Below, piece by piece: positions 20,963 through 64,000 of a stretch of DNA of 64,000 nucleotides. How positions within the stretch are numbered: position 1 is the first letter of the stretch; each line of letters opens with the position of its first letter. The position numbers and the translations under genes were made by a program. Source of the stretch: Candidatus Magasanikiibacteriota bacterium. GTDB taxonomy: Bacteria; Patescibacteriota; Patescibacteriia; Magasanikbacterales; GWA2-37-8. The notes beneath the pieces are model-generated. The model made no database searches. It was given only the letters and a program-made list of their open reading frames with translations, and was not told the DNA's origin. The DNA is taken from NCBI GenBank assembly GCA_030650025.1, contig JAUSEN010000016.1:9428-73427 (forward strand), read 5' to 3'.

Positions 20963-21052
20963 CGATTGCGCCGCGCTTCAAAGGACCCGCCCGCCTCGCT
21001 ACGCGAAGCGTTGCGGGCAGGCACTGCGCGGCACGATTTTGTTAAATCGCAT
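20963..21052 (+). promoter_or_regulatory. conserved structured 5' leader (variant B) ending in palindrome CGATTTTgttAAATCG + CATATG
   Basis: Shares gccgcgcttcaaagg...cactgcgcggca(c/t)gattt with leaders at 9278-9343 and 22911-22961; contains a nested GC palindrome homologous to 54606-54645. Confidence 0.55.
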
Positions 21053-22506: not shown

Positions 22507-22580
22507 GGGTGCCCAATGGGAATTGAACCCATATTGTCGGTACCACAAACCGACGTAATAACCATTATACCATGGGCACC
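22507..22580 (-). tRNA. tRNA-His(GUG)
   Basis: Reverse complement folds as acceptor ggtgccc/gggcacc, anticodon stem tcggt/accga with loop ttGTGgt, T arm gggttcaattccc. Confidence 0.7.
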
Positions 22581-22638
22581 ATGAGTAAAATCCGCTCTAG
22601 TATAGCGCCAAAATTGCTTTTAGTCAATGTGAGGGAGT

Positions 22639-22712
22639 GTCTCCTCGAGAGGAATCGAACCTCTATACTTAGCTTAGAAGGCTAATGCTCTATCCATTGA
22701 GCTACGAGGAGA
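22639..22712 (-). tRNA. tRNA-Arg(UCU)
   Basis: Reverse complement: acceptor tctcctc/gaggaga, D arm gtagctcaatggatagagc, anticodon stem ttagc/gctaa with loop ctTCTaa, T arm gaggttcgattcctc. Confidence 0.75.
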
Positions 22713-22910
22713 AAAAATAGCTTATCCCGCCACAGCGGGACCCCGCCTCGCGGCGGTGGGAAGGCTACTGTTTTATCCGCTCCGACGCCCCGCTTTGCGG
22801 GGGTCGGAGCCCCGACTTTACGTCGGGGTTAAACTATGGGATCAAGTGGCTCTATGGTAATCAATTTGGCCTTAAAAATCAAGTTATGGTATAATTTAAG
22901 AGTAACTAAT

Positions 22911-22961
22911 ATTTGCGCCGCGCTTCAGAGGACGTTGCGCGGCATGATTTCGTCAAATCAT
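22911..22961 (+). promoter_or_regulatory. conserved structured 5' leader (variant C) with palindrome TGATTTcgtcAAATCA + CATATG, preceded by an extended -10 (tggtataat at ~22888)
   Basis: ttgcgccgcgcttcagaggacgttgcgcggcatgatttcgtcaaatcatATG. Confidence 0.55.
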
Positions 22962-23324
22962 ATGTACAAGAAGATAAAAGTACTGTCGACTGTTTTTATA
23001 ACTTTTTTGGTTACTTGGCCAATGACAGCCCTGGCGCAATATGGTTTGAACGAAGCGGCCGGGAAAATGGGGTTTGATAGAAGCAAGAATGTTTACGGAG
23101 TGATTAGCCTCGTGGTGGGGGCAGCGTTGGCGTTTACCGGACTAGTGTTTTTTGGAATGATGATGTACGCTGGTGTGCGCTGGATGACCGCGCGCGGCAA
23201 CGAAGATTTGGCAGAGAAGGCCAAACAAGCCCTCGCGAATTCTACGATTGGTTTTGTAATCGTGGCGCTTTCTTACGCCCTGACGCGGTTTGTGTTTGGA
23301 GCGCTTAATTTGCCGACATTTTAA
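22962..23324 (+). CDS. pilin-module paralog 11 (start moved to ATG 22962: MYKKIKVLSTVFITFLVTWPMTALA)
   Basis: C-terminal MYAGVRWMTARGNEDLAEKAKQALANSTIGFVIVALSYALTRFV; the track ORF starts upstream inside the leader. Confidence 0.6.
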   Translation: MYKKIKVLSTVFITFLVTWPMTALAQYGLNEAAGKMGFDRSKNVYGVISLVVGAALAFTGLVFFGMMMYAGVRWMTARGNEDLAEKAKQALANSTIGFVIVALSYALTRFVFGALNLPTF

Positions 23325-23492
23325 GTAGGGGTATGGTATATCATGCCCCTGGCTGTTGCTTGACAGAAATTCGGATTTAAGGTAGGCTGAAGCTATTATT
23401 TATCCTCGTCTAGACGAGCTTTTAAGCGCCAGACAAGGACCGGACGGCTTTGGGGGCATGCCCTGGGCTCGCTCGGTGAGAAATACGCATGT

Positions 23493-26847: not shown

Positions 26848-26965
26848 AAAGATTGATGTTTAATTTGTTGTAGAGATGCCCCAGTAGAGACGCCCCAGCG
26901 GGGCGTCTCTACGTTATCTGGCGGTTGATTTTCTGGTTTAATTATGGTTAAATAGCGCGGCAATT

Positions 26966-30529: not shown

Positions 30530-32310
30530 GGTGCGTACCGCAAAAAGGTCGTTTTTTACGACCGCCACGTCCCCTGCACCAGAACGCTTCGCGTCCGGTT
30601 CAGGGCTTCGCAGTCTAGCTCTGGCTACTAGCGAAGCGCCACTCGGGACCTCTAGAAAATTGCGTAGCTTACACAAAAAACGATGTATATTGCTACAAAA
30701 TTTACTCGAGTTACTCCAAGTGGTTAAAAACCCCACCCATTTTATTGGGCCGCTTGGAAAAGCGGCTTTTATTATTTTGGTCGGCTCAGATCGGTGAGAC
30801 AGAGATTTCTCCCCGCTCTAGGCGGGTCGAAATGACAGTGCAGAGTGGACTGGCTGGTACTTTGACAATTCAGGCAAGCACCATGCACCACCATAAACCA
30901 CAAGGGTTTATGGCAAACAAGGGTGCATGGCTAAATAACCATGAACCACAAGGGTTCATGGCAAGATTAATGCTTATTTTAAACATCAAGGTCTGGTGTT
31001 TAAAATAATAAAGGGTAACTTCATAAACATGAATATTGTCATGAAAAATTATGAAGTCAACTCAACGTAAGCACCATTTGGTGTTTTCGTTGTGTGCAAT
31101 TTCAACAAGAGCATATGGTGGATGCCTAGACACTAAAAGATGAAGAAGGACGTTGCAAGGTGCGATAAGCCTCGGGGAGCTCCTAAGCAAGCTGTGATCC
31201 GGGGATTTCCGAATGGGGAAACCCGTTACAAAGAAATTTGTAACATCGTATACTGAATTCATAGGTGTACGAGGAAGACCTGGCGAAGTGAAACATCTCA
31301 GTAGCCAGAGGAAAATAAATCGAAGAGATTCCCTTAGTAGTGGCGAGCGAAAAGGGATCAGCCTAAACCTTATACATGTTGTTGCCGTAACAGATTGATC
31401 GCAAGGTTAATTATGAGCGGCAGTTTAAAGACGCAGGTCGTTGTGTATATGGTGTAATAAGACAATTACGCGTCCGCCCTGCGGCGGACGGTGAAAATGT
31501 GACTTTCCTAGTAGAACGCTCTGGAACGAGCGGCCGCAGAGGGTAAGAGCCCCGTACGCGAAAGGAGTCTATATAATCATGGTAGTTGTTCTTGAGTAGG
31601 GCGGAACTCGTGAAATTCCGTCTGAATTCGGGCCGACTATGGTCTAAGGCTAAATACTTTTAGTGATCGATAGTGGACTAGTACCACGAGGGAAAGGTGA
31701 AAAGTAGCCCGGTGAGGGCGATGAAATAGTATCTGAAACCATATGTTTACAAAGAGCGGAAGACCGGAGTACCCAGAATTATTCCCCCCTACGGGGGGAA
31801 TAATTCTGGGTCCTGGTCGACCGTGTTCCTATTGAAGAATGAGCCTGCGAGTGTGCTGTATGTCGTTGCTTAAACCCTTCTGGGGTGGAGGCATAGCGAA
31901 AGCGAGTCTTAACGGGCGTATATAATGGCATGCACATAACCCGAAACCGGGTGAGCTATCCATGACCAGGATGAACCCTTCCGAAAGGAAGGGGGAGGTC
32001 CGAACACACGAGCCGTGCAACACTCGGTGATGAGTTGTGGATGGGAGAGAAATTCTAATCGAACTCGGTGATAGCTGGTTCTCCTTGAAATAGTTTTAGG
32101 ACTAGCCTCGCGCGTTCCCTTTGGCGGTAGAGCACTGGATGAGACTCGGGTCCTTCGGGATACCAGTTTCAATCAAACTCCGAATGCCGAAGATTAAAAG
32201 CGCGGGAGTCAGACTGTGGGGGCTAAGCTCCATAGTCAAAAGGGAAACAGCCCTGATCGCCAGCTAAGGTCCCTAAATCCATATTAAGTGTGAAAGGTGG
32301 TGTTAACTCT

Positions 32311-32348
<38 letters not shown>

Positions 32349-33172
32349 TAAAGAAAGCGTAACAGCTCACTGGTCAAGAGTTTTCGCGCCGAAAATGTAC
32401 CGGGGCTAAATATGGTACCGAAGCTGCGAATTGGTAGATCCTCCGGGATTTACCTCTGGTAAAGGAGCGTTGGTAGCTGCGCTGAAGCCATAGCCGCGAG
32501 GCGTGGTGGAGTGCTACCAAGTGAGAATGCAGGCATGAGTAACAATAAGGGAAGTGAGAATCTTCCCCGCCGAAAATCCAAGGTTTCCTGGGCAACGAGA
32601 CTCGACCCAGGGTTAGTCGATCCTAAGGCCAGGCCGAAAGGCGTAACCGATGGAAGAGCAGGTTAATATTCCTGCACTTGGTATAGTTTGTTTGTTAGTG
32701 CGCATAGTGAAGCTGACAGCGTGTTTTGAATATACACGTTTCTTTACCCCGACGTGAAGTCGGGGCAGGGACGAAGATGAAGCCTTCGGGTGGAGTCAAC
32801 TGTCGGGGACGCTGTGCCTAGAAAAGCTAATAAACGTTAAGCTATATCAAACCGTACCGTAAACCGACACAGGTAGGTGAGTCGAGAAGACTAAGGCGTA
32901 CGAGAGAACCCTCTTTTAGGAACTCTGCAATACAGCGGCCGTAACTTAGGGATAAGGCCCGCCCCGATGTAAAAATCGGGGTTACAACAAAAGACGCACT
33001 GCGACTGTTTACCAAAAACACAGCTCCCTGCAAAAGCGCAAGCTGAAGTATAGGGAGTGATGCCTGGCCAGTGTCAGAACGTTAAGGCGAGAGGTTATCC
33101 GGTCATCCGACCGGAGAAGCCTTGAACTGAAGCGCTGATGAACGCCGGCGGTAACTATAACCGTCCTAAGGT

Positions 33173-33408
33173 AGCGGACTTGAGAAATCGAGCACGCTAG
33201 GATTGGGACGGATATAGCAAAAAGTAAACAATCATTAAAGATGAGCAGAGTCATCGAAATATTAACAGCCATTCAAAAAATGCTACCTTGCTTTGCAGTA
33301 ATGCAAAGAATAATCCGGTCATAGCTTATGAGAGACTATACGCTATGCTCCTCCGACGAAACTCGGAGGAAGAAGATTTAGTCCTTCGTCATTAAACAGG
33401 AAACGAAG
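33173..33408 (+). mobile_element. group I-like intron (ORF-less), inserted after the U of GGU|AGCG (E. coli ~L1931, helix 69/70 region)
   Basis: The conserved ccgtcctaaggt.agcgaaattccttgtcgg is interrupted by 236 nt; the 5' exon ends in U and the insert ends in G. Confidence 0.6.
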
Positions 33409-33430
33409 AGCGAAATTCCTTGTCGGGTAA

Positions 33431-33682
33431 ACCAAGAACTTGCCCCCTGGTCGAGTAATTGACCTTGAAGCAATAGCTGTATCGGTGGAACCCATAAAAA
33501 ATCGTGCAGATTAATTATGGGCAATACCGAGGGAAGTCCTCCCAAAATGGAGTGACCCCGTAGAGACTACACGCTGTCTCCCGAGTTATTCGGGATGAAG
33601 ATATAGTCCGATCCTGCCGAGTAATTGGCAGCCCTACGAAAATCAAAAATCTAAAATCATAAATCGAAAATTCGTAGATGGA
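33431..33682 (+). mobile_element. second 23S insertion (~252 nt) within GGGUAA|GUUCCGACC (E. coli ~L1951-1953); intron-like, ORF-less
   Basis: Conserved flanks gggtaa and gttccgacctgcacgaatgg are contiguous in E. coli; boundaries are uncertain by 1-2 nt. Confidence 0.55.
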
Positions 33683-34208
33683 GTTCCGACCTGCACGAAT
33701 GGCATAACGATAGTGCGACTGTCTCAAAGAGGGACTCGGTGAAATTGCAAGGAAGGTGAAGATGCCTTCTACCCGCAACTAGACGAAAAGACCCCGTGAA
33801 GCTTTACTACAGCTTGCTATTGGTATACGTGCACGTATGTTGAGCGTAGGTGGGACCCGCAAGGGGCCAATGAGACACCACCCTTATGTATATGTATGCC
33901 TAATCTCTGCCCGTGAATCCGGGGAGGGAGACAGTGGCTGGCGGGTAGTTTATCTGGGGCGGATGCCTCCTAAAATGTAACGGAGGCGTTTACAAAGGTA
34001 GGCTTAGCGCGGATGGAAATCGCGCTGGACGTGCAAACGCAAAAGCCTGCTTTACTGCAAGGGCTACAACCCGCGCAGTTGCGAAAGCAGAAGTTAGTGA
34101 ACCGACCATCCTATATAGGAAGGTGGAAGATCAACGGATAAAAGCTACTCCGGGGATAACAGGCTGATCGCGCCCAATAGTCCACATAGACGGCGCGGTT
34201 TGGCACCT

Positions 34209-34573
34209 TAAATTATCGGGGTGCATACAAAGTGATTTGTTTCCAAGTTTTTTCGTCTAAAACAATTATGTTAAGATAGAAATAGAGATTTAAATCGGCT
34301 TATAACGGTGAACCCGTCATCCCGCCTAAGGCGGGATCGGCAATACCGTGGGAAGTCGCCCATTAACTGTGGGTTGACCCCGTAACGACTGACCCGAAAG
34401 GGGAGACTCGGTTACAGTTAGTAATCGGGTAATACGCCGACTCTTATATTAATCAAACTGAGATCATGCGACTCACGCCCCGAGCAAGTCCCGAAAGGGA
34501 CAAGTCGAGGGGTCCGCTAACATCCAGTATAAGAAGAAGATATAGTCTGCCCCATACGAAAGTATGGAATCAT
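34209..34573 (+). mobile_element. third 23S insertion (~365 nt) in the peptidyl-transferase-centre strand GGCACC|U(A)CGAUGUCGG (E. coli ~L2500); intron-like, ORF-less
   Basis: tttggcacc ... tacgatgtcggctcatc flanks; no long ORF inside. Confidence 0.55.
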
Positions 34574-34636
34574 GTACGATGTCGGCTCATCGCATCCTGG
34601 GGGTGAAGAAGCTCCCAAGGGTTTGGCTGTTCGCCA

Positions 34637-34688
<52 letters not shown>

Positions 34689-35124
34689 CTATCTGTTGCG
34701 GGCGCAGAATGTTGCAAAGACTCTTCCCTAGTACGAGAGGACCGGGAAGAATAAACCTCTGGTGTGCGAGTTGTTCCGTCAGGAGCATTGCTCGGTAGCT
34801 ACGTTTAGCACGGATAAACGCTGAAAGCATCTAAGCGTGAAGCCGTCTTTAAGATTAACATTCGTTATAGACCCCTTGTAGATTACGAGGTTGATAGGCT
34901 CTACGTGTAAGCACAGTAATGTGTTGAGCGGAGGAGTACTAATCGGTCGAGCGCACAACGAAAGCATTAAGTGGTGCTCACCTCTTCGGTGAGTCTACGA
35001 GTTATGTTTGCCATGTCATTCGACATGGCCTTGCCTGAATTTAGTCATTGTAGTAAACTATTTTGAAAATTCCCCCGCCAAAAGCGGGATCAGCTCGCTA
35101 ACGCGAGCCGAAAAAAGAACTAAT

Positions 35125-38676: not shown

Positions 38677-38735
38677 AAATAAAATGATATTGTATCTGTA
38701 GGGGCGGGGTTACCCCGCCCCTACGTTGTATATTT

Positions 38736-49197: not shown

Positions 49198-50397
49198 ATG
49201 AATCTGTACGAATTTGAGGGAAAAAATTTATTGGCTAAACATGGAATTAAAACGCCGCGAGGCGTGGTGGTTCGGCGTGGGGATGATTTTGTTAGTAAGT
49301 ATAATGAATTAGTGAAATTGGGAATTAAAGACGTGGTGGTGAAGGCCCAAGTTTTGAGCGGTAAGCGTGGTAAAAATAATGGGATTAAATTTTGTGATAA
49401 TGGCGAGGAGGTAAAAAAGGCATGTGAGGAATTATTTACTTTAAATATTCGAGGGCAGTATGTGGCGGCTATATTAATTGAAGAAAAATTAGCCATTGCG
49501 GAAGAACATTATATTTCGATTGTTTATGATACTAACAAAAAACAGCCGTGTTTAATTTATAGTAAACAGGGAGGGATGGATATTGAGGATGTGGCAGAGG
49601 AGAAGATTGAGAAAGTGTGGTTGGATATTAGGGAAGAAAATGTCGTTGGCGTAGAGACGTTGCACGCAACGTCTCTACCGATTGATGAATTATGGAAATT
49701 ATTTTTAAACGAAGATACCCGGCAAGTAGAAATTAATCCGCTCGTGAAAACCAAATCTGGCGAATGGGTCGCGGCGGACGCAAAAATCGCGATTGATGAT
49801 GATGCTTTTTTTAGACACCCCTCGGCAAGCTCGGGGCCTTCGGTAACTGATTGGACCAAATTTGAGCCGCGGACAATGCTGGGGCGCCTGCCGACAAGCC
49901 GGGAAATTGCCGTCAAGAAAATTGATGAAGGCGAAAAATATTACCAAGGCACAGCCGGGAAGTATATTGAGCTCGACGGTGATATCGCGATGATTTTAAA
50001 CGGGGGTGGAGCGAGTATCGCCAATATGGACGCCCTAGCTCAAGTGGGACTCAAAGCTGCTAATTACACGGAATATTCCGGTAATCCACCGAGAGAAAAA
50101 GTCGCGGCGTTGGCGCGCATTGTACTATCTAAACCTGGTCTCAAGGGCCTTTGGATGTGTGGGGTAGTAGCCAATTTTACTAACATTAAAGAAACGTTTT
50201 TAGGGATTTGCGATGCCCTCGATGAAATTAAGCCGACTTACCCAATTGTCGTCCGGCGCGACGGCACGGAGAGTGCCGCGGGGTTCGCATTATTAGAAGA
50301 ATGCGCCAAGCGTAATAATTTGAATATTAAAATGTTTAAAAAGGAAACCGGCATGAGTGCCACGGCGCAAATTTTGGCGGAGATGATAGAAAAATAA
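49198..50397 (+). CDS. SucC-like ATP-grasp subunit (succinyl-CoA synthetase beta / citryl-CoA synthetase large subunit-like)
   Basis: MNLYEFEGKNLLAKHGI... ATP-grasp N-domain and the ...DGDIAMILNGGGASIANMD ligase-CoA motif. Confidence 0.7.
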   Translation: MNLYEFEGKNLLAKHGIKTPRGVVVRRGDDFVSKYNELVKLGIKDVVVKAQVLSGKRGKNNGIKFCDNGEEVKKACEELFTLNIRGQYVAAILIEEKLAIAEEHYISIVYDTNKKQPCLIYSKQGGMDIEDVAEEKIEKVWLDIREENVVGVETLHATSLPIDELWKLFLNEDTRQVEINPLVKTKSGEWVAADAKIAIDDDAFFRHPSASSGPSVTDWTKFEPRTMLGRLPTSREIAVKKIDEGEKYYQGTAGKYIELDGDIAMILNGGGASIANMDALAQVGLKAANYTEYSGNPPREKVAALARIVLSKPGLKGLWMCGVVANFTNIKETFLGICDALDEIKPTYPIVVRRDGTESAAGFALLEECAKRNNLNIKMFKKETGMSATAQILAEMIEK

Positions 50398-54191: not shown

Positions 54192-55277
54192 ATGCAATAC
54201 CAAATTTTAGAAGTAAACCCAGTTTCCGGTTATGAATTGTTAGATTCGGGTGATGGCGAAAAATTAGAGCGCTATGGCGATGTTGTAGTTGTACGGCCAG
54301 ACCCACAGGCCTTATGGCGCAAGAAGCTGCCGGAGAGCGAGTGGCAAAAAGCCAACGCTTATTTTAAACCCCGCATCACCATAAACCACAAGGGTTTATG
54401 GCAAACAAGGGTGCAGGGCGAGCGTGATAGTAAGAGCGCAGAGTGGCAGACGCGCAGCGAGATTCCAGCACGGTGGCCAATTGAATTTGGGGGTTTAAAG
54501 TTTTGGATTAAACTTTCGGCTTTTAAGCATACGGGGTTATTTCCGGAACAGCTTCCGAATTGGGTTTGGCTGCAAGAAAAAATACGATTGGCGAGACCCC
54601 ACCCCCGCCCGACTTCGCTACGGCGAAGCCGTTGCGGGCGGGCTGCCCTCCCCTTTGCGAAGGGGATGGGAAGCGATACCCCCTCTGTCGCAACGGAGGG
54701 GGAAGGGGGAGGACTGGCGCGCGTTTTAAATTTATTTGGCTATACCGGTGGGGCGACGCTCGCTTGCGCGCAGGCTGGCGCCAGTGTTGTCCATGTGGAT
54801 GCTAGCAAGTCCGCCATTGGATGGGGGAGGGATAACGCGGTGCTTTCCGGCTTAGATAAAAAACCAATTCGTTGGATACTAGACGATGCCGCGACGTTTG
54901 TGCGTCGCGAAATTAAGCGCGGCAACAAATATGATGGCATCATTATGGATCCGCCGGCTTTTGGACACGGACCTAACCGAGAACTTTGGAAAATAGAAGA
55001 TCATTTTTTACCGCTTCTTGAGGATTGTAAAAAAATATTAAGCAGAGAGCCTCTGTTTTTTTTGGTGAATGGCTATGCCTCGGGGTATTCGGCCGTGGCT
55101 TATGAAAATAGTTTAGGTGATTTGTTAAAACACACCCCCCGGCCCCCTCTTGTTAGAGGGGGAGGCGAAAAAGATAATCTAGGAAATATAGAAATTGGTG
55201 AATTGACGATTGCCGAGAGCGGGAGTGGCAGAATTTTGCCAGCTGGTATTTTCGCGCGCTGGAGCGCCCCGCAGTAA
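54192..55277 (+). CDS. RlmI/RlmK-like SAM-dependent rRNA methyltransferase carrying in-frame palindromic insertions
   Basis: NLFGYTGGATLACAQAGA...VDASKSAI (motif I) and DPPAFG (motif IV). GC-rich low-complexity inserts at 54377-54418, 54593-54718 and 55131-55168. Confidence 0.65.
   Translation: MQYQILEVNPVSGYELLDSGDGEKLERYGDVVVVRPDPQALWRKKLPESEWQKANAYFKPRITINHKGLWQTRVQGERDSKSAEWQTRSEIPARWPIEFGGLKFWIKLSAFKHTGLFPEQLPNWVWLQEKIRLARPHPRPTSLRRSRCGRAALPFAKGMGSDTPSVATEGEGGGLARVLNLFGYTGGATLACAQAGASVVHVDASKSAIGWGRDNAVLSGLDKKPIRWILDDAATFVRREIKRGNKYDGIIMDPPAFGHGPNRELWKIEDHFLPLLEDCKKILSREPLFFLVNGYASGYSAVAYENSLGDLLKHTPRPPLVRGGGEKDNLGNIEIGELTIAESGSGRILPAGIFARWSAPQ
54593..54718. repeat. nested GC-rich palindromic mini-element (in-frame inside CDS)
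   Basis: gagaccccaccc...ccctcccctttgcgaagggga.gggaa...ccccctc.gtcgcaacggagggggaagggggagg; related to 61947-62033 and 20985-21020. Confidence 0.65.
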
Positions 55278-55298: not shown

Positions 55299-56369
55299 AT
55301 GGAGATGGTTATCCAAGAGCGATTAGTGAGCCGCGAGCACAATAATTTTAACATCTTGCGCCTGTTGGCCGCGGTGGGTGTTATTATTACGCACGCCTAC
55401 GCGCTCCTTGGGCTACCTCAATTCGATTGGCTTAAACGCACGAGCCTGGGGCTAATTTCATTTAGCAAATTGGGCGTGTACGTGTTTTTTGTTATCAGCG
55501 GGTTTTTAGTTACCCGCAGCCTTGAAAACAGCGCTACAATTAAGTCATTTTTTTGGAAACGATTTTTGCGAATTTTTCCGGCCATGGTAGTAGTAATTGG
55601 TTTGGCCGTGTTTGTGTTAGGCCCGCTGGTCACCGAGGCACCGCTGGGGGATTATTTTACGAGTCTTGAGACGTATCGGTATTTGGGGGGGTCGTTCCTG
55701 TATTTTATAACCTATTCGCTTCCCGGTGTTTTTTTAAATAACCCATATCCGGGGGCAGTTAACGGGTCGCTGTGGACTTTGCCGTATGAATGGGCGTGCT
55801 ATTGTTTGCTCGCGTGCCTCGCCCCGCTTATTAGAAAGCGCAGTTTTATATGGCTCGCCGGTATTGCCGCGGCGTGTATGGCAACGCGCACGCTCCTGGG
55901 GCACTACCAGGTGTTTTTGGTAGTTCCATTTGTAAGCATCGACACGCGCGAGCTCCTTTTATTTGCTTTTTTATTTTTTTGGGGCGCGGCCGCTGGATAC
56001 GTGGCTTCATATATTCGATATAATTTTTTGGCTGTTTGCCTCGCGCTTGTAGCCTTGGGTGGGTTGTTATTTTTTCACAAGAAACTCGCTTCGTATTGGC
56101 TCCTTATTATTTTGCCCTTTATTACTGTTTGGCTCGCGGCCATTCCCCTGCCCGCGGTCATCCGCCGCTGGTTTAACCAGGCCGATTTTTCTTATGGCAT
56201 GTATATCTACGCCTTTCCAGTGGCGCAGCTTTTGGTATATAGCTACCGCGGCTTTACGGTTACCACTTTTGCTCTTGCTACTATTTTTGCCACGTTGCCG
56301 TTGGCCATGCTGTCGTGGTACTTGGTCGAAAAACCCGCGCTGGCTTTAAAAAAATTTCCCCCCATATAG
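55299..56369 (+). CDS. acyltransferase family 3 (OafA-like) membrane protein
   Basis: NILRLLAAVGVIITHAY and about 10 TM helices. Confidence 0.75.
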   Translation: MEMVIQERLVSREHNNFNILRLLAAVGVIITHAYALLGLPQFDWLKRTSLGLISFSKLGVYVFFVISGFLVTRSLENSATIKSFFWKRFLRIFPAMVVVIGLAVFVLGPLVTEAPLGDYFTSLETYRYLGGSFLYFITYSLPGVFLNNPYPGAVNGSLWTLPYEWACYCLLACLAPLIRKRSFIWLAGIAAACMATRTLLGHYQVFLVVPFVSIDTRELLLFAFLFFWGAAAGYVASYIRYNFLAVCLALVALGGLLFFHKKLASYWLLIILPFITVWLAAIPLPAVIRRWFNQADFSYGMYIYAFPVAQLLVYSYRGFTVTTFALATIFATLPLAMLSWYLVEKPALALKKFPPI

Positions 56370-56370: not shown

Positions 56371-57063
56371 ATGGCGCTAACGGTTTTATACGAAGATAAC
56401 CATTTAATCGCGGTTTTTAAACCGGCGGGGGTTTTAGTGCAGGGAGATAAAACTGGAGATGCCACCTTGATGGACGAAGTCAAGTATTATTTAAAACAAA
56501 AATACCATAAAACCGGCAAAGTTTTTTTGGGGCTCATTCACCGGCTCGATCGGCCGGTCGCGGGCGTAGTGTTATTTGCTAAAACCAGTAAAGGGGCCAG
56601 CCGCCTTAGCGAGCAATTCAGAAATCATACCGTAGAAAAAATATACGAAGCCTTAGTTGAGGGAGTGCCACCTCAAGGACAAGGGCAGTTAGTGCATTTT
56701 TTAAAAAAAGATAAAGAGGGGAACGTTACCACGGTTTATGATAATTTTGTGCCTGGTAGCCAACGGGCGGAATTGCAGTATGAAGTTTTAGATGAAAAAA
56801 TGGTTGGGCCAGTAGGGAACACGCCCCAGGCGCGTTCCCTACTGCGAATTAAATTAGGTACGGGCCGAAGCCACCAGATTCGCGCGCAACTCGCCAAAAT
56901 TGGCTGTCCGATTGTCGGCGATGTTAAGTATGGTGCAAGTTCGGCTTTAGAGGATAAAGCCATTGCCCTGACTGCCGCGTCTCTGATATTTGATACGGCC
57001 ACCGGAGAGAAAAGGGTTACCGTGCGTGTGGATAGTTTTCTAGACAAAGCCTTCACACCGTGA
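56371..57063 (+). CDS. RluA-family pseudouridine synthase
   Basis: HRLDRPVAGVVLFAKT catalytic Asp motif. Confidence 0.8.
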   Translation: MALTVLYEDNHLIAVFKPAGVLVQGDKTGDATLMDEVKYYLKQKYHKTGKVFLGLIHRLDRPVAGVVLFAKTSKGASRLSEQFRNHTVEKIYEALVEGVPPQGQGQLVHFLKKDKEGNVTTVYDNFVPGSQRAELQYEVLDEKMVGPVGNTPQARSLLRIKLGTGRSHQIRAQLAKIGCPIVGDVKYGASSALEDKAIALTAASLIFDTATGEKRVTVRVDSFLDKAFTP

Positions 57064-57116: not shown

Positions 57117-57155
57117 CGTCCCGACGTACGTCGGGACATGATTTCGTAAAATCAT
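57117..57155 (+). promoter_or_regulatory. leader module: hairpin gtcccgac-gta-cgtcgggac + palindrome TGATTTcgtaAAATCA abutting the start codon
   Basis: Ends at CATATG 57153-57158. Confidence 0.55.
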
Positions 57156-58304
57156 ATGCGAAAGCTTAAGTTTTTGGGGGCAATGGCAGCAGGTTTGGCG
57201 CTTTTCGGCGCCGGGTGTTCTTTTACTCCGCCAGGAGAGAAGTCTGTTACAGAGGGTAGCTATGTCCCTAAAACAGCTGATACTAGCCCAATTAAAATTG
57301 GTTGGGTGGGGCCTTTGACAGGGGACGCGGCGAGTGTTGGTAAAGACGCGTTGACAGCGGCGCAGTTGGCAGTGGAGGAAGTGAATGCCGCGGGCGGCAT
57401 TAACGGGCGAATGCTTGAACTTGTGGCCGAAGACGGCAAATGTAATCCTAAAGACGCGGCTACGGCAGGGAATAAGCTTATTAATGTAGACAAAGTCCCG
57501 GCGATTGTGGGGACGGCGTGTTCAGGCGAGATGATGGCAATTGCGCCAACTGCCGAACAGAATAAAACAATTATGGTGGGTTACTGCGCTTCGGCTCCGA
57601 CGGTCAGCGCGGCGGGTGATTATATCTTTCGCACGTATCCGTCCGATGTTCTGCAATCCAAATTTGTCGCTGAATATGTTTATAATACTCTTGGCAAGAA
57701 GAAAGTGGCCACGCTTGCCGTCCTCGGCGATTGGGGGACTGGCCTTAAGAACGGCTTTGAACAGCGCTTTAAAGAATTAGGCGGAGAAGTTGTTTCTTCT
57801 CAAGACTATGTGCAGGAAAGTCGCGATTTACGCACACAGTTGACTAAAGCCAAGGACAGCCAGCCCGAGATTTTATTTTTTGTCGGATACACAGAAGCTT
57901 CGATTGCTGGTTTAAAACAAGCTAAAGAGCTCGGCCTTAATGTATCGATAATTGGCGGCGATGCCTGGGATGACACCAAGATTCATGCTAATTCTTTTGC
58001 CGAGGGCATTATGTACAGTGTCGGGGCCGCGCCCCAGTATGACCTGGCCTGGGTAGAAAAATTAAAACAGAAGGGCGCTACCACCAATGTCTGCGTGCCT
58101 CGTTCGTATGACAACGTCAAACTCCTGGCAGAAATTATGAAACGGACTGGGACGGACACTGCTAAAATTAAAGACGAGCTGTACAAGGTGCAAGGTTATC
58201 AAGGAATTGGTGGCATAGTAAATATGGACAGCAACGGTGACAATACTTCTGCCCAGTTCCAAATTAAAGTAGTTAAGAACGGCAAAGCCGAAGCGGCAAA
58301 ATAA
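57156..58304 (+). CDS. branched-chain amino acid ABC transporter substrate-binding lipoprotein (LivJ/LivK family)
   Basis: Lipobox FGAGCS; IKIGWVGPLTGDAASVGKD...INGRMLELVAEDGKC. Confidence 0.8.
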   Translation: MRKLKFLGAMAAGLALFGAGCSFTPPGEKSVTEGSYVPKTADTSPIKIGWVGPLTGDAASVGKDALTAAQLAVEEVNAAGGINGRMLELVAEDGKCNPKDAATAGNKLINVDKVPAIVGTACSGEMMAIAPTAEQNKTIMVGYCASAPTVSAAGDYIFRTYPSDVLQSKFVAEYVYNTLGKKKVATLAVLGDWGTGLKNGFEQRFKELGGEVVSSQDYVQESRDLRTQLTKAKDSQPEILFFVGYTEASIAGLKQAKELGLNVSIIGGDAWDDTKIHANSFAEGIMYSVGAAPQYDLAWVEKLKQKGATTNVCVPRSYDNVKLLAEIMKRTGTDTAKIKDELYKVQGYQGIGGIVNMDSNGDNTSAQFQIKVVKNGKAEAAK

Positions 58305-60156: not shown

Positions 60157-60228
60157 CACAGATTACCTGCCCGCAATGCTTCGCATAGCGAGGCGGGCGG
60201 GCGCAGATTCATTTGGATTAAACAGATT

Positions 60229-60957: not shown

Positions 60958-60993
60958 TGTTTATTTACGGAACAACAATTTTCTCGCTAACTG

Positions 60994-61725
60994 TTGTTCC
61001 GTAAATTATATATGCTAAAAATAACAAATTTAAATGCCGGCTATGCGGATTTACCTGTTTTAAAAGAGGTAAATTTGGAATTACAACCCGCTACCATGTC
61101 AGTGTTGATGGGTCCGAATGGCGCTGGGAAGTCCACGCTTTTGAAGTCGGTTTTTAATTTGACCAATATTACCAGCGGGCAAATTTATTTTGAAGGCGTT
61201 GAGATTACTGGTTGGCCGGCGCACAAGTTGCTATCATTAGGAATCGCGTATGTAGCCCAAGGAAAGATTAATTTTAGTTCCATGACCGTGCGCGAAAATT
61301 TGATGCTCGGCGCGCATTTTATAAAAAATAAAATGGAATGTCAGGAACGCTTGGTAAAAATTTATGAACAGTTCCCAATGCTTTTAGAAAAAGAAGGCGC
61401 TTTGGCCTTTACGCTTTCGGGCGGGCAGCAGCAGATGCTTGCGATCGGCCGGGCGTTGATGAGCGCCCCGCGGTTGCTTTTGCTCGACGAGCCTTCGCTT
61501 GGGCTCGCGCCTAAATTGGTGAAAGAAGTGTTTGCTAAAGTCAGAGCCATTAAAGATATTTTTGGCGCGACAGTTTTAATCGTGGAGCATAACTTAAAAA
61601 GTTTAATGGAAGTGGCGGATTATGGGTATATTTTGGTGCAGGGTCAAATTGTCGCTCATGATAAATGTAGTATTTTAAAAAATCTGCCTATCATGAAAGA
61701 TGTGTTTGTGGGTAAATTAGATTAG
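60994..61725 (+). CDS. livF: ABC transporter ATP-binding protein
   Basis: GPNGAGKST, LSGGQQQML, LLLLDEP. Confidence 0.8.
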   Translation: MFRKLYMLKITNLNAGYADLPVLKEVNLELQPATMSVLMGPNGAGKSTLLKSVFNLTNITSGQIYFEGVEITGWPAHKLLSLGIAYVAQGKINFSSMTVRENLMLGAHFIKNKMECQERLVKIYEQFPMLLEKEGALAFTLSGGQQQMLAIGRALMSAPRLLLLDEPSLGLAPKLVKEVFAKVRAIKDIFGATVLIVEHNLKSLMEVADYGYILVQGQIVAHDKCSILKNLPIMKDVFVGKLD

Positions 61726-61744: not shown

Positions 61745-63085
61745 ATGCTTAAACAAATTGTTGACTTACACGTACACTCAAAATACTCGCGCGCTTGTTC
61801 GCCGCAGTTGGATCTGCCGAATATCGCCGCGGCTTGTAATAAGAAAGGGATAGATATTATCGCGACGGGCGATTTTACGCACCCGGCCTGGTTTAAACGC
61901 CTCGAAGAAAATTTGGAAGAAACGAGTGAAGGGGTGTATGAATTGCGAGACCCCACCCTCGCCCTCCCCTTTGCGAAGGGGAGGGAAATTGTCGCCCCCC
62001 TCCTTAGCAAAGGAGGGGGTAGGGGGAGGTCTCACGTACGTTTTGTGCTCGGGACGGAAATTTCTTGCATTTATTCTCATAAAGACAAGACCCGCCGCCT
62101 GCATTTGTTAATTTTTGCGCCTAATTTAGAGGCAGTAAGAAAATTTAATGCCGAGTTAGAGAAGAGAGGGGTGAATTTAAAGGCTGATGGGCGGCCGATA
62201 ATGGGTTTGAGCGGTAAAGAGATTGTGCAGATTTGTTTAGATATAGATAAAAATATGTGGGTGGTGCCGGCCCATGCCTGGACACCGTGGTTTGCGGTAT
62301 TTGGGTCTAAATCTGGGTATGATTCGCTGGAAGAATGTTTTGAAGAGTTAACGCCACATATTACCGCCATTGAAACTGGCTTGTCGAGCGATCCTACTAT
62401 GAATCGCCGGTTGTCTAGGCTTGATAATATTACTCTCATTTCTAATTCGGACGCTCATAGTTTGGAAAAGTTAGGCCGAGAGGCGAATATTTTGCAGTTT
62501 AATGATGAGGAGAGTCTCACGTATGCAGAATTAAAGAGAATTATTACCACCGGGGACAGAAAAAAATTTTTAAACACGATAGAATTTTATCCGGAAGAGG
62601 GAAAATATTATGCTGATGGCCATGCGGATTGCAAAATTAGCCTGACACCAGAAGAGGCCATAACCAATAAATTAAAATGCCCTAAGTGCCAGCGCCCACT
62701 AACAGTAGGCGTCTTGCACCGTGTAGTAGCGCTCGCCGATAGAGATGAGAAGGAAATACCCAAAAACAAGTTTATTCCGCACCAATACGCGGTGCCATTA
62801 CTCGAAATTATCGCGGGAGCGTTTAGGGTGGGAGTGGCCAGTAAAAAAGTAAGAGCGGAATATGAGAGTTTAATAAAAAAATTGGGCGCAGAATTTGATA
62901 TCTTGTTGAATATTCCGATTGATAAGATTGAGGGGGCGGTAAGTAATAAAAACATCGCGTTCGGCATACAGAATATGCGGGCGGGGAAGGTAGCGGTAAA
63001 ACCAGGGTACGATGGTATTTTTGGCGTGGTTGACGTGTTCTCTGACAAAAAATATCATCGGCCGGTGCAGACTAGCCTGCTTTAG
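61745..63085 (+). CDS. PHP-domain protein (TIGR00375-like; possibly endonuclease-Q-like) with 29-codon in-frame palindromic insertion
   Basis: VDLHVHSKYS...GDFTHP PHP motifs and CPKC zinc-finger-like motif; insert PTLALPFAKGREIVAPLLSKGGGRGRSHV encoded by 61947-62033. Confidence 0.6.
   Translation: MLKQIVDLHVHSKYSRACSPQLDLPNIAAACNKKGIDIIATGDFTHPAWFKRLEENLEETSEGVYELRDPTLALPFAKGREIVAPLLSKGGGRGRSHVRFVLGTEISCIYSHKDKTRRLHLLIFAPNLEAVRKFNAELEKRGVNLKADGRPIMGLSGKEIVQICLDIDKNMWVVPAHAWTPWFAVFGSKSGYDSLEECFEELTPHITAIETGLSSDPTMNRRLSRLDNITLISNSDAHSLEKLGREANILQFNDEESLTYAELKRIITTGDRKKFLNTIEFYPEEGKYYADGHADCKISLTPEEAITNKLKCPKCQRPLTVGVLHRVVALADRDEKEIPKNKFIPHQYAVPLLEIIAGAFRVGVASKKVRAEYESLIKKLGAEFDILLNIPIDKIEGAVSNKNIAFGIQNMRAGKVAVKPGYDGIFGVVDVFSDKKYHRPVQTSLL
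61947..62033. repeat. GC-rich palindromic mini-element with terminal inverted repeats gagacc/ggtctc, 87 bp, in-frame in CDS
   Basis: gagaccccaccctcgccctcccctttgcgaaggggagggaaattgtcgcccccctccttagcaaaggagggggtagggggaggtctc. Confidence 0.7.
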
Positions 63086-63465: not shown

Positions 63466-63538
63466 GTGTCTCCATGAGGAATTGAACCTCAATTACAGGC
63501 TTCGGAGGCCTGTGTTTTATCCGTTAAACTATGGAGAC
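63466..63538 (-). tRNA. tRNA-Arg(CCG)
   Basis: Reverse complement: acceptor gtctcca/tggagac, D stem gttt/aaac, anticodon stem caggc/gcctg with loop ctCCGaa, T arm tgaggttcaattcctca. Confidence 0.8.
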
Positions 63539-63784
63539 CTTATTTAAAAAATCCCTAATCTGTTGTCGCAGTAATCTTTTGCCTTCTGTCGTTTTTAAAA
63601 ATTTTTCTCTCCTTTCTGCATCGGATTTTTCTAGGTAGCATTCATAATGAACTAACATTGGCATTTTATTTTTAGTCGAAGCAACTCTATCCTGTTTATG
63701 TTGGTTCACACGTTTAGCCAAGTCAGCAGTTGACCCTTTGTATAAATCGCCATTTTTTAATAATAGAATATATGTATAATACAT
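63524..63784 (-). CDS. GIY-YIG nuclease-family small protein
   Basis: YYTYILLLKNGDLYKGSTADLAKRVNQH matches GIY-x10-YIG. The 3' end overlaps tRNA-Arg by ~15 nt, so the true C-terminus may be shorter. Confidence 0.7.
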   Translation of the reverse strand: MYYTYILLLKNGDLYKGSTADLAKRVNQHKQDRVASTKNKMPMLVHYECYLEKSDAERREKFLKTTEGKRLLRQQIRDFLNKVSIV

Positions 63785-64000
63785 ATTGTGGTTAACTTCG
63801 CCCAGTCATTCGACTGGGCGCCCGGTCGTATGACCGGGCGGAGGCCGGTATCCTATCCGTTGAACGACGAGGACTAAACTAAACGCCGCACAGCGCGCAG
63901 CGCCTCGTATATCCTATACTGGAGAGGGGAAATAATCAAGTCAAAAGTCCCGGGCTTTTCTGCTGTATAGCCACCAAAATTAATTTTAAACCGGGTCACA

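What the first reader, a model, noticed from the sequence alone, without database searches (positions are those of the whole stretch)
54593..55168. RPE-like palindromic elements inserted in-frame inside coding sequences (RlmI-like hot spot)
Inside the RlmI-like ORF the element at 54593-54718 starts with gagaccccaccc, and contains ccctcccctttgcgaagggga.ggg and ccccctc.gtcgcaacggagggggaagggggagg hairpins plus an extra nested cgcccg...cgggcgg palindrome. It encodes a low-complexity Pro/Arg/Gly-rich peptide just before motif I. At 55131-55168 a mini-version (ccccctcttgttagagggggagg) adds PPLVRGGGE. At 54377-54418 lies the ACAA-loop element. The same family interrupts the PHP gene at 61947-62033. 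Insertions keep the reading frame, as described for Rickettsia palindromic elements, so they create new surface loops instead of inactivating the genes.
Basis: seen in the sequence. Interest (0 to 1): 0.7.

Follow-up and report, generated by a model that had tools for sequence, protein, structure and literature searches.

The report
Triplex-motif palindromic repeats inside genes
A tiny uncultivated (CPR) bacterium has short GC-rich palindromic DNA repeats, of the enigmatic BoxC/"triplex motif" type that E. coli carries only between genes, copied in frame into the surface loops of its housekeeping enzymes, showing repeat DNA adding new protein segments.

Summary
The host is a Candidatus Magasanikbacteria MAG. 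Its 361-aa SAM-methyltransferase (54192-55277) carries three window-specific segments. The nearest syntenic relative lacks all three, and 81 of 120 orthologs have baseline loop lengths at all three sites. AlphaFold places them in low-confidence loops of an otherwise confident fold. Site b is a roughly 85-87-nt double hairpin with a separate 39-nt hairpin nested inside it. The same double hairpin sits in frame in the endonuclease-Q ("PHP") gene at 61947-62033. Site a is a clean 54-nt insertion with at most 1 nt of target duplication. Site c is a single unit.

The main correction concerns family. The "gagacc/ggtctc" flanks are mirror-repeat third arms, so each element is an inverted pair of intrastrand triplex motifs. 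This is the BoxC/PIT/TM class (Holder 2015), reported as always intergenic in E. coli K-12. Related copies occur in frame in UvrB, RadA, LigA and DnaX of other low-GC MAGs. They also occur in other phyla and in predicted viral contigs.

No transposase or target duplication was found, so how the elements spread is unknown. I rate this a new variant of known kinds (RPE-like behaviour, BoxC-like element).

The parts
54192..55277 (+). Host gene 1: SAM-dependent methyltransferase, 361 aa (PF10672; 2IGT-like, with an RlmI-like catalytic domain). It carries three in-frame repeat insertions totalling about 67-70 extra residues.
   Evidence: Pfam hit. 100% identical to an NCBI Candidatus Magasanikbacteria MAG protein, while orthologs are about 290 aa. 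2IGT matches at E = 1.4e-66. AF2 mean pLDDT is 85 with three low-confidence loops.
54369..54422 (+). Site a insert: 54 nt (18 codons, PRITINHKGLWQTRVQGE). It belongs to the ACAA-loop nested-hairpin family.
   Evidence: The codon alignment to L196 shows a clean gap between TTT AAA and CGT GAT, with junction ambiguity of at most 1 nt, so no target duplication. It is 39/39 identical to 30889-30927. Fold z = -2.7.
54593..54717 (+). Site b composite: a double-hairpin element (an inverted pair of triplex motifs, about 85-87 nt) with a nested hairpin. It encodes ARPHPRPTSLRRSRCGRAALPFAKGMGSDTPSVATEGEGGGLA immediately before motif I.
   Evidence: Mirror-repeat test gives 8/8 triads on both halves, with 0/300 shuffles as good. 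A homologous copy sits at the same codon position in L001.
54604..54642 (+). Nested 39-nt (13-codon) hairpin CCCGCCCGACTTCGCTACGGCGAAGCCGTTGCGGGCGGG. It belongs to a different repeat family and was inserted into the site b element.
   Evidence: It is exactly the window-specific 13 aa (PTSLRRSRCGRAA) relative to the L001 copy of the parent element.
55133..55162 (-). Site c: a single triplex-motif unit. On the minus strand it reads CCCCCTC-TAACAA-GAGGGGG-CCG-GGGGGTG. It lies inside a 42-nt (14-codon) window-specific segment at 55140-55181 (RPPLVRGGGEKDNL).
   Evidence: Window-specific relative to L196 and L001. Weak covariance-model match of 20.9 bits. Hairpin identified. The third-arm reading comes from direct inspection of the sequence, not from a scored test.
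61745..63085 (+).
   Evidence: 100% identical to an NCBI 'endonuclease Q family protein', PF27218. The loop is 15 aa in 53 of 120 orthologs and 39 aa here.
61947..62033 (+). 87-nt (29-codon) double-hairpin element, an inverted pair of triplex motifs: GAGACCCCACCC-TCG-CCCTCCCC/GGGGAGGG ... CCCCCTCC/GGAGGGGG-TA-GGGGGAGGTCTC. It encodes DPTLALPFAKGREIVAPLLSKGGGRGRS.
   Evidence: z = -6.0; 87.5 bits; 8/8 triads on both halves. Absent from the nearest ortholog P0122/L196.
20986..21021 (+). Intergenic copy (36 nt) of the family that is nested in site b.
   Evidence: Inverted-repeat pair I1, 94% complementary to 60166-60201. Context shown.
60166..60201 (-). Intergenic copy (36 nt) of the nested family, between livM and livG. 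These two genes abut in the relative L196.
30880..30964 (+). Two tandem copies of the ACAA-loop family, just upstream of the 23S rRNA gene. A further related copy lies at 22318-22347.
   Evidence: Repeat families D8 and D16.. 23S rRNA coordinates.
56812..56842 (+). GTAG...CTAC hairpin (GTAGGGAACACGCCCCAGGCGCGTTCCCTAC), in frame in the RluA-type pseudouridine synthase gene. This is a third element family found in coding sequence.
   Evidence: A window-specific 9-aa segment relative to both L196 and L001.
49651..49678 (+). GTAGAGACGTTGCACGCAACGTCTCTAC hairpin, in frame ('VGVETLHATSLP') in the ATP-grasp/citrate-lyase-like gene. Intergenic relatives lie at 26884-26912 and 38698-38724.
   Evidence: The peptide 'GVETLHATSLQ' occurs at site a of methyltransferase ortholog P0042. 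Insert status in this gene was not confirmed against L001.
60964..61005 (.). 42-nt AT-richer hairpin filling the livG-livF spacer. The two genes abut in L196.

Best explanation
The segments are copies of short, self-propagating, non-coding DNA repeats that landed inside genes. They survived only where they kept the frame, lacked stop codons and fell in tolerant surface loops.

The main family is an inverted pair of 'intrastrand triplex motifs'. Each motif has a C-rich arm, a loop, a complementary G-rich arm, a short loop, and a second G-rich arm that mirrors the first. This is the BoxC/PIT/TM class known from E. coli intergenic DNA. At least three other hairpin families behave the same way in this window: the ACAA-loop family, the CCCGCCCG family and the GTAG...CTAC family.

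Shown:
- The segments are insertions relative to close and distant orthologs.
- They are multi-copy and nested.
- They occur in frame in unrelated genes and genomes.
- The same loops are hit repeatedly by different families.
- The stems and the third arm co-vary.

Inferred:
- The inserts are translated into disordered Pro/Gly/Arg-rich loops.
- Copying proceeds without target-site duplication through a structured single-stranded DNA intermediate. This could use a trans-acting enzyme encoded elsewhere, or repair/replication-templated copying.
- The apparent hot spots are produced by purifying selection rather than by targeting.
For: Insertion status:
- 81/120 methyltransferase orthologs are at baseline at all three loops. 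24 have inserts at site a, 24 at site b and 2 at site c, with unrelated sequences.
- The EndoQ loop is 15 aa in 53/120 orthologs, and many orthologs carry different hairpin-type inserts there.
- The nearest relative L196 lacks all five in-CDS inserts and two intergenic hairpins across 9 kb of synteny.

Copies elsewhere:
- 22-nt and 39-nt exact matches between distant loci in the window.
- A nested 39-nt element that is absent from the L001 copy of the parent element.
- The same family in frame in UvrB (two copies), RadA, LigA and DnaX. It is read in three frames (LPFAKG, SPLRRG, PPLCEGE) and in antisense.

Independent hits on the same loop:
- L002 and L194 carry the family at different codon offsets. 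The sister L195 is empty.

Tolerance:
- 4-6 of 6 frames are stop-free, against about 1.3 for random host-like sequence.
- The inserts have pLDDT of about 50-64 and lie in coil between secondary-structure elements, while the core is above 90.
- All family-invariant residues are retained.

Structure:
- 92.7% of cells are paired, and 9 of 23 pairs show compensatory changes. 0-1 of 500 shuffles reach the observed values on four of five measures.
- 8/8 mirror triads in the 3' half of all 10 copies, with 0/300 shuffles as good. The position of the A co-varies across all three arms.

Junction:
- Site a has at most 1 nt of possible target duplication.
Against: - No transposase, RAYT or IS200-type gene was found among the window ORFs scanned. 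The two calls covered most but not all ORFs. The only nuclease-like ORF is an 86-aa GIY-YIG protein.
- Only two full copies and one single unit of the main family lie in 64 kb. The rest of the genome could not be fetched, so its copy number is unknown.
- There is no direct evidence of translation or of current mobility.
- The site b copy is shared, at the same codon and with the same degenerate 3' end, with L001 (66.6% aa identity). It is absent from the closer L196 (73.0%). This requires a clean loss, a re-insertion at the same spot, or lateral exchange.
- Three-way covariation suggests a constraint on nucleic-acid structure that a purely passive 'junk that survived' model does not need.
- Holder et al. 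2015 found no link between E. coli triplex motifs and mobile elements.
Confidence: 0.72

Rival explanations
1. The repeats spread without any dedicated mobility enzyme. Their hairpin/triplex structures stall replication and provoke breaks. Repair then copies an ectopic repeat unit into the gap, or deletes one. On this view the elements are by-products of structure-induced instability rather than transposons.
For: - No transposase in the window.
- No target duplication at the clean junction.
- The triplex-motif signature is present in every copy.
- Holder et al. link such motifs to local instability, deletions and replication slippage, and found no associated mobile-element genes.
- The patchy site b pattern fits frequent clean loss.
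Against: - Near-identical units occur across phyla and in predicted viral contigs. This is easier to explain with an active vector.
- Three non-triplex hairpin families behave in the same way in the same genes.
- No microhomology was seen at the junctions.
Confidence: 0.17
2. The elements are functional nucleic-acid signals kept by positive selection. Examples would be mRNA structures that pause ribosomes at domain boundaries, or protein-binding or processing sites. The encoded peptides would then be incidental.
For: - Compensatory changes, including three-way changes, maintain the structure.
- The site b copy may have persisted since the window/L001 split, with one compensatory pair change in hairpin 2.
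- ACAA-loop copies sit next to the rRNA and tRNA genes.
Against: - Most orthologs, including the closest, do without the elements.
- Different, unrelated families occupy the same loops.
- Both orientations and all reading frames occur.
- Structure would be conserved anyway if it is needed for copying.
- Earlier experiments found no promoter or terminator activity for PIT/BoxC motifs (cited).
Confidence: 0.06
3. The segments are removed before the protein is made or matures, as very small introns or intein-like segments, so the enzymes are not actually altered.
For: - CPR genomes are rich in introns. The 23S rRNA gene in this window carries a group I intron.
- The outer arms of each element can pair and bring its two ends together.
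Against: - Every in-gene copy examined keeps the frame and lacks stops. This covers at least 10 copies in 8 genes, including copies found by DNA pattern alone. The expectation if frame did not matter is about one in three per copy.
- No Rfam family matches, even at E <= 1.
- No ribozyme or intein motifs were noticed; none were specifically searched for.
Confidence: 0.03
4. The segments are native low-complexity linkers of these protein families and were not inserted.
For: One ortholog (P0002/L001) has a similar peptide at site b.
Against: - Absent from 81/120 orthologs, from the closest relative and from the solved homolog 2IGT.
- The similarity lies at DNA level, is palindromic, and is shared with unrelated genes in other frames and with intergenic DNA.
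Confidence: 0.02

Closest known systems
BoxC / PIT elements / TMECO intrastrand triplex-motif repeats (Bachellier 1990s; Hoyne & Maher 2000; Holder et al. 2015, PMC4666352)
   Same: - Same three-block architecture: C-rich arm, loop, complementary G-rich arm, 2-4-nt loop, mirror-repeat G-rich arm (against the pattern quoted).
- G/C-rich units in a lower-GC genome.
- Occurrence as inverted pairs on opposite strands ('palindromic TM').
- Patchy presence among related genomes.
- No associated transposase.
- Loci carrying the strict TMECO consensus belong to the same set of hits.
   Different: - The window copies do not match the strict TMECO consensus. Their cores are CCCTCCCC and CCCCCTCC, and the first loop is 4-8 nt.
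- The host is a CPR bacterium, not a proteobacterium or cyanobacterium.
- TMECO is 'always intergenic' in E. coli K-12, whereas these copies sit in frame inside housekeeping genes.
- Related copies occur in predicted viral contigs, whereas Holder et al. found no phage or plasmid association.
Rickettsia palindromic elements (RPE; Ogata et al. 2000, as summarised in PMC10969869)
   Same: - Palindromic repeats inserted in frame into many unrelated, still-functional genes of a small-genome bacterium.
- The insertions map to positions compatible with the protein fold.
- Copies also occur in intergenic DNA (for the RPE description).
   Different: - No evidence of homology.
- 30-87 nt, against roughly 100-150 bp for RPEs.
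- GC-rich homopurine/homopyrimidine arms with mirror symmetry.
- Several unrelated families, including nesting.
- Read in three frames and in both orientations, rather than as one conserved peptide per family.
- The superfamily spans phyla rather than one genus.
REP/BIME and REPIN elements mobilised by RAYT transposases
   Same: - Short GC-rich imperfect palindromes, often paired, multi-copy, with no target duplication.
- Another hairpin family in this window has the REP-like GTAG...CTAC ends.
   Different: - The double-hairpin family lacks the 5' GTAG.
- No RAYT gene in the window.
- REPs are by definition extragenic.
Bacterial MITEs and IS200/IS605-derived palindrome-associated elements
   Same: - Small size, terminal inverted complementarity, internal hairpins, non-autonomous, multi-copy.
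- The IS200/IS605 type inserts without target duplication.
   Different: - No target duplication, so unlike DDE-type MITEs.
- No parent IS or TnpA identified.
- No conserved target tetranucleotide across copies.
- The 'TIRs' are better explained as triplex third arms.
Very small dispersed repeats of cyanobacteria, and GC clusters / double-hairpin elements of fungal mitochondria (recalled from my own knowledge; not checked here)
   Same: - Tiny hairpin modules that nest into one another.
- They invade genes and structural RNAs of compact or AT-richer genomes.
- GC-cluster and double-hairpin architecture.
   Different: - Different sequences and hosts.
- I could not compare sequences with these tools.

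Membership tests
BoxC/PIT/TM intrastrand triplex-motif repeats | [quoted passage not shown] | tested here: met
   Both window copies score 8/8 allowed triads on the 3' half, and 8/8 on the 5' half (the complementary-strand motif). 0/300 shuffles do as well. The 3' half scores 8/8 in all 10 family copies, and the A position co-varies. Definition taken.
BoxC/PIT/TM intrastrand triplex-motif repeats | Strict TMECO consensus CCCTCNCCC-N3-6-GGGNGAGGG-N3-GGGNGAGGG. | tested here: not met
   0 matches in the window. 5 of the 212 loci fetched carry it, including an in-frame copy in an 829-aa ORF (L136/L160). The window copies are therefore a sister subfamily, not TMECO itself.
BoxC/PIT/TM intrastrand triplex-motif repeats | Intergenic location (always intergenic in E. 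coli K-12). | tested here: not met
   All three window units lie inside ORFs, in frame. This is the main departure from the published description.
BoxC/PIT/TM intrastrand triplex-motif repeats | [quoted passage not shown] | not testable with these tools
   Only hairpin and three-way-junction folding could be computed.
Rickettsia palindromic elements (RPE) | A palindromic repeat inserted in frame in unrelated ORFs at fold-compatible positions. | tested here: met
Rickettsia palindromic elements (RPE) | Sequence membership in RPE-1 to RPE-10 (about 100-150 bp, genus Rickettsia). | not tested
   No RPE sequences are available in the tools. Host (CPR), length (30-87 nt) and composition differ, so I claim analogy only.
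Rickettsia palindromic elements (RPE) | Each family contributes one conserved peptide, read in one frame. | tested here: not met
   Hairpin 1 is read as LPFAKG, SPLRRG or PPLCEGE, and in antisense as SPSQRGG.
MITE (DDE-transposase-dependent) | Terminal inverted repeats. | tested here: met
   GAGACCCCACCC against GGGGGAGGTCTC pairs at 10/12 positions (read directly from the sequence). Helix 1 of the alignment is 89% paired. These arms are also the triplex third strands.
MITE (DDE-transposase-dependent) | Target-site duplication flanking the element. | tested here: inconclusive
   None is visible at any double-hairpin copy. The only codon-resolved filled/empty junction (site a, a different family) allows at most 1 nt. 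In the wider superfamily the ends read TAACCCC...GGGGTTA in 93 of 138 hits. This could be a TA duplication or part of the inverted repeat.
MITE (DDE-transposase-dependent) | A cognate autonomous IS or transposase in the genome. | tested here: inconclusive
   No transposase domain was found among the window ORFs scanned. The rest of the genome was not retrievable.
REP/REPIN-RAYT | Conserved 5' GTAG and a RAYT gene; extragenic location. | tested here: not met
   The double hairpin has no GTAG and lies within genes. No Y1 transposase domain was found in the window. A separate GTAG...CTAC hairpin family does exist here, partly inside coding sequence.
IS200/IS605-derived palindrome-associated elements | Subterminal hairpins, no target duplication, insertion 3' of a fixed tetra- or pentanucleotide, and TnpA (Y1) in trans. 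| tested here: inconclusive
   The hairpins and the lack of duplication are compatible. The 5' flank is GC in the four Magasanikbacteria copies but varies elsewhere. No TnpA was found in the window.
Any Rfam RNA family | A match to a curated covariance model. | tested here: not met
   No hit on the elements at gathering threshold, nor at E <= 1 over 54300-55250.

The most novel reading that the evidence does not exclude
BoxC/PIT-type triplex-motif repeats have been a 25-year-old puzzle, with no known function or mode of spread. On this reading they are genuinely mobile, structure-dependent elements that insert without target duplication. They move between phyla, possibly on phages. In gene-dense CPR genomes they, together with several other hairpin families, are a major and continuing source of lineage-specific loops in essential proteins. 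Their three-way covariation reflects a triplex or hairpin intermediate that is required for copying.
Probability: 0.35. Interest if true: 0.8.

Novelty: new variant of a known kind. Interest (0 to 1): 0.6.

Why it matters
Two known but separate phenomena meet here.

- Triplex-motif (BoxC/PIT/TM) repeats are abundant in E. coli and cyanobacteria. They are described there as intergenic, of unknown function, and without evidence of mobility.

Finding the second class behaving like the first gives three things:

1. It provides codon-resolved filled and empty sites from which the insertion chemistry can be inferred. So far these point to no target duplication.
2. It offers a concrete explanation for some of the unexplained extra loops in CPR proteins. 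In this window that is about 70 residues, 19% of one enzyme, and five in-CDS inserts in 9 kb.
3. It shows that compact, gene-dense genomes absorb repeat DNA into tolerant protein loops.

There is also a practical point. These inserts inflate protein lengths and create spurious low-complexity 'domains', which can mislead annotation and alignment of CPR proteomes.

Tried and rejected
- Fetching the rest of the source contig through the window protein failed; the protein is not on record. Genome-wide copy number is therefore unknown.
- The single genome-contig scan used an exact 20-mer from hairpin 1. Most of the 71 hits were a different Geomonas repeat sharing that hairpin. A more degenerate pattern would have been better. 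The source genome is not among the species representatives.
- Protein-level searches for the encoded peptide were unproductive.
  - The exhaustive HMMER search with the 31-aa peptide returned one unrelated repeat protein.
- Literature searches for MITE, REP or palindromic elements in CPR/Patescibacteria found nothing relevant. A search on raw sequence strings first returned only eukaryotic G-quadruplex papers. A second string search then led to Holder et al. 2015.
- Rfam gave no match at either threshold.
- The phage collection gave no BLAST hit. The plasmid collection gave only a Photobacterium tandem array and one Pseudanabaena copy.
- I considered integron attC sites because of the Vibrionaceae array. 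I rejected this because the core-site consensus is not present, judged by inspection.
- I looked for target duplications at all double-hairpin junctions and found none convincing. A CAGATT direct repeat flanks the livM-livG hairpin, but it has no parallel at the other copy.
- The NJ tree of 120 orthologs is too poorly resolved to decide between one insertion and several at site b.
Full report
**1. What is there**

The ORF at 54192-55277 (361 aa) is a PF10672 SAM-dependent methyltransferase. It is identical to a protein of a Candidatus Magasanikbacteria (CPR/Patescibacteria) MAG. Its closest solved relative is the uncharacterised 2IGT protein (E = 1.4e-66). RlmI/YccW matches only the catalytic domain (E = 3.5e-11), so 'RlmI-like' is acceptable as a loose label.

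- Site b begins GAGACCCCACCC and contains hairpin 1 (54646-54670), hairpin 2 (54679-54702) and a nested CCCGCCCG...CGGGCGGG hairpin (54604-54642).
- Site c is a single hairpin, CCCCCTCTTGTTAGAGGGGG (55143-55162).
- Site a is the ACAA-loop element (54369-54422).
- An 87-nt copy of the double hairpin lies at 61947-62033 in ORF 61745-63085. That ORF is an endonuclease Q family protein, not merely a 'PHP' protein.

**2. More than chance**

- The two double-hairpin copies share a 22-nt exact match (in-window E = 2.6e-7).
- A covariance model built from nine family members finds exactly these two full copies in the window (87.5 and 61 bits), plus a weak match at site c (20.9 bits).
- As single-stranded DNA the 87-nt copy folds into a three-way junction at -31.2 kcal/mol, against -16.9 +/- 2.4 for shuffles (z = -6.0). 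The composite has z = -3.95.
- The whole window holds 37 perfect hairpins with stem >= 8, against 5.5 expected and a maximum of 9 in 30 block shuffles.

**3. They are insertions**

Among 120 methyltransferase orthologs the three loops have baseline lengths of 8, 8-13 and 3 residues.
- 81 orthologs are at baseline at all three loops.
- 24 have extra sequence at site a, 24 at site b and 2 at site c.
- Only the window protein has all three.

The extra sequences in other orthologs are mostly unrelated to those in the window and to each other. Examples are 'GVETLHATSLQ', 'DSS..LRSAQNDN', 'PSSGRRG' and 'SPLLKGG'. This points to repeated independent hits on the same tolerant loops.

The closest relative found is L196 (JGI contig). 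It is syntenic and 73.0% identical over 926 aligned residues of three proteins, against 66.6% for L001. Relative to L196 the window has exactly these extra segments:
- three in the methyltransferase (aa 60-77, 143-177, 317-330);
- one in EndoQ (aa 76-97);
- one in RluA (a GTAG...CTAC hairpin, 56812-56842).

Two operon junctions, livM-livG and livG-livF, hold hairpins in the window where the L196 genes abut.

In the EndoQ family the loop is 15 aa in 53 of 120 orthologs and 39 aa here. Many orthologs carry other hairpin-type inserts at that loop.

The AlphaFold2 model (mean pLDDT 85, pTM 0.85) has a confident core. The low-confidence coil falls exactly at residues about 60-83, 134-176 and 315-331, each between secondary-structure elements. 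All family-invariant residues, including motif I and the DPP motif, are retained. The distant solved homolog 2IGT has short loops at all three places.

**4. Anatomy**

- *Site a.* This is a clean 54-nt (18-codon) insertion between TTT AAA and CGT GAT. Junction ambiguity is at most 1 nt, so there is no target-site duplication. It is 39/39 identical to a copy just upstream of the 23S rRNA gene.
- *Site b.* This is a double hairpin of about 85-87 nt with a different 39-nt (13-codon) hairpin nested inside. The nested part is exactly what the window has and the homologous L001 copy lacks. Relatives of the nested hairpin lie in intergenic DNA at 20986-21021 and 60166-60201.
- *Site c.* This is a single unit inside a 14-codon window-specific segment.

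**5. What the main family is**

The 'gagacc...ggtctc' flanks are more than terminal inverted repeats. In every copy the G-rich arm of hairpin 2 is followed, after 2-4 nt, by its mirror image:
- GGAGGGGG|GGGGGAGG
- GGAGGAGG|GGAGGAGG in L001
- GGAGAGGG|GGGAGAGG in L064 and L070
- GGGGAGGG|GGGTGGGG in L031

The 5' flank is the mirror of the C-rich arm of hairpin 1. The 3' halves score 8/8 allowed triads in all 10 copies, and none of 300 shuffles does as well.

This is the definition of an intrastrand triplex motif, so each element is an inverted pair of such motifs. The class is known under three names: BoxC in E. coli (1990s), PIT elements (Hoyne and Maher 2000), and TM/TMECO (Holder et al. 2015, PMC4666352). 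Holder et al. report the following:
- 3610 copies in 262 proteobacterial genomes;
- high numbers of G/C-rich motifs in cyanobacteria;
- inverted pairs at five E. coli K-12 loci;
- triplex formation in vitro;
- local genomic instability;
- no link to mobile elements;
- in E. coli K-12, an exclusively intergenic location.

The window copies fit the general architecture but not the strict TMECO consensus, which has 0 matches in the window. That consensus does occur in five of the loci fetched, one of them in frame in an 829-aa ORF.

The stems are kept by compensatory change. 92.7% of cells are paired, against 56-74% when the partners are slid. 9 of 23 pairs show changes on both sides. 0-1 of 500 shuffles reach the observed values on four of five measures.

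**6. Distribution**

- The exact 20-mer of hairpin 1 occurs in 71 stretches of species-representative genomes.
  - Most are a different Geomonas repeat that also reads as a triplex motif by eye.
  - Double-hairpin or half elements with (GA)GACC[TC]C[TA]CCC ends occur in the Baikal Magasanikbacteria MAG. They also occur in low-GC MAGs labelled Gammaproteobacteria, and in Cellvibrionaceae, Chthonomonadaceae, Methylovirgula and Oscillospiraceae.
A common single-unit form reads TAACCCCTCC-N4-CCTCCCCTT-N4-AAGGGGAGG-N2-GGGTGGGGTTA.
- Photobacterium sp. GJ3 has a 2.4-kb tandem array of 141-nt double-hairpin units.
- Fifteen stretches of predicted viral contigs carry the same architecture, with several copies on some contigs.
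- The taxon labels of MAGs and the viral predictions are taken as given. I did not verify them.

**7. In-frame behaviour elsewhere**

The family lies in frame inside several genes:
- UvrB (two full or half copies, L050);
- RadA (L064);
- LigA (L065);
- DnaX (L070, antisense);
- the methyltransferase of L001, L002 and L194.

Hairpin 1 is read in all three frames. The loci found by DNA pattern alone were not chosen for coding status. Among the low-GC ones, five copies are internal and in frame, and one forms a gene's 3' end.

The elements are stop-free in 4-6 of 6 frames. The expectation is about 1.3 for random sequence of host composition, and 2.4-3.4 for shuffles of their own composition.

L194 carries the element one codon from VLNLF, while its sister L195 is empty. 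L002 carries it seven codons away. The window and L001 carry it three codons away. This makes at least three separate events in one loop.

The window and L001 copies share position, frame and a degenerate 3' end (GGAGGACT). They therefore look homologous by descent, yet the closer relative L196 lacks the element. The options are a clean loss, re-insertion at the same spot, or lateral exchange. I could not separate them, and the NJ tree is too weak to help.

**8. How it most likely works**

Shown:
- The segments are duplicative and multi-family.
- They are sometimes nested insertions.
- Only frame-preserving copies are seen in genes.
- The tolerated positions are surface loops.
- Structure is conserved across copies.

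Inferred:
- The inserts are translated into disordered Pro/Gly/Arg-rich loops.
- The 'hot spots' reflect selection, not targeting.
- Copying uses a folded single strand and leaves no target duplication.

What supplies the activity is unknown. Pfam scans covering most of the window's ORFs found no transposase, only an 86-aa GIY-YIG protein. A repair- or replication-templated route without a dedicated enzyme, as suggested by the instability data of Holder et al., is the main rival.

**9. Comparison and novelty**

In behaviour this is the Rickettsia RPE phenomenon. In sequence architecture it is a BoxC/PIT/TM repeat. Neither description covers the combination. The full-text searches found no report of such elements in CPR genomes or of triplex-motif repeats inside coding sequence. 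The library is incomplete, so prior description elsewhere cannot be excluded.

I therefore rate it a new variant of known kinds, with moderate to high interest.

Noticed in passing
window 31093-34959: The 23S rRNA gene spans 3867 nt against a 2925-nt model. It contains an Rfam group I intron (33419-33631) and a 41-nt perfect hairpin (31771-31811, stem 19) that looks like an inserted element. Hairpin repeats may therefore also invade the rRNA.
   Followed up: no
window 9313-9346, 21020-21053, 22931-22964, 57125-57158: A 34-nt repeat, GACACTGCGCGGCATGATTTTGTCAAATCATATG, ends in ATG in all four copies. At 57125-57158 this ATG is the livK start codon, and the copies near 21-23 kb lie beside pilin-like genes. 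Each copy contains a small hairpin (ATGATTT-N4-AAATCAT). It may be a shared leader or translation-initiation signal.
   Followed up: no
window 15800-23330: An array of paralogous small membrane proteins with the T4SS_pilin domain (PF18895). These account for most of the long direct repeats in the window.
   Followed up: partly
window 63524-63784 (-) and L001 6242-6541: An 86-aa free-standing GIY-YIG nuclease ORF lies next to a tRNA gene and twin hairpins (63799-63840). In L001 a GIY-YIG ORF sits between the ATP-grasp and CoA-binding genes, where the window has none. These small nuclease genes therefore look mobile themselves. A link to the repeats is pure speculation.
   Followed up: no
L001 (Baikal Magasanikbacteria MAG), e.g. 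CoA-binding gene aa 60-84, EndoQ aa 84-116, C-termini of CofD and ATP-grasp genes: The related genome is colonised in frame by a different palindromic family (GTCATCCTGAGCGAAGCGAAGGATC..., peptides 'VILSEAKDP...DSS...'). The same family appears at site b of several methyltransferase orthologs. Each genome seems to carry its own set of in-frame repeat families.
   Followed up: partly
L197 19050-21540 (Photobacterium sp. GJ3, NZ_CP073579): A tandem array of about 2.4 kb with a 141-nt period. Each unit is a double-hairpin/triplex-motif element (AACCCCACCC...GGGGGTTA). This arrangement is unusual for a family that is otherwise dispersed.
   Followed up: partly
L003-L073 (Geomonas species): Geomonas genomes hold many copies of a repeat, CGTCCTCCCCTTTGCGAAGGGGAGACAGAGGGGATTTG. 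It shares the window's 20-nt hairpin exactly and also reads as a triplex motif by eye (AAGGGGAG / GAGGGGAT). At least about 20 stretches come from G. propionica alone.
   Followed up: partly
L198-L212 (IMG/VR predicted viral contigs): Double-hairpin elements with TAACCCCCTC...GGGGAGGGGTTA ends occur in intergenic positions of predicted viral contigs, up to three on one contig. Phages are a possible route for spread between phyla.
   Followed up: partly
window 54604-54642, 20986-21021, 60166-60201: The nested hairpin family contains the sequence GCGAAGC (or CGCGAAGCG). As I recall, this matches the d(GCGAAGC) mini-hairpin known for unusual stability in single-stranded DNA. I did not test this here.
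   Followed up: no
window 55299-56369: An acyltransferase-3 gene sits between the methyltransferase and RluA genes. It is absent from both syntenic relatives: L196 has the two genes adjacent, and L001 has a PDDEXK_3 gene there. This junction is a variable spot for whole-gene insertions as well.
   Followed up: no
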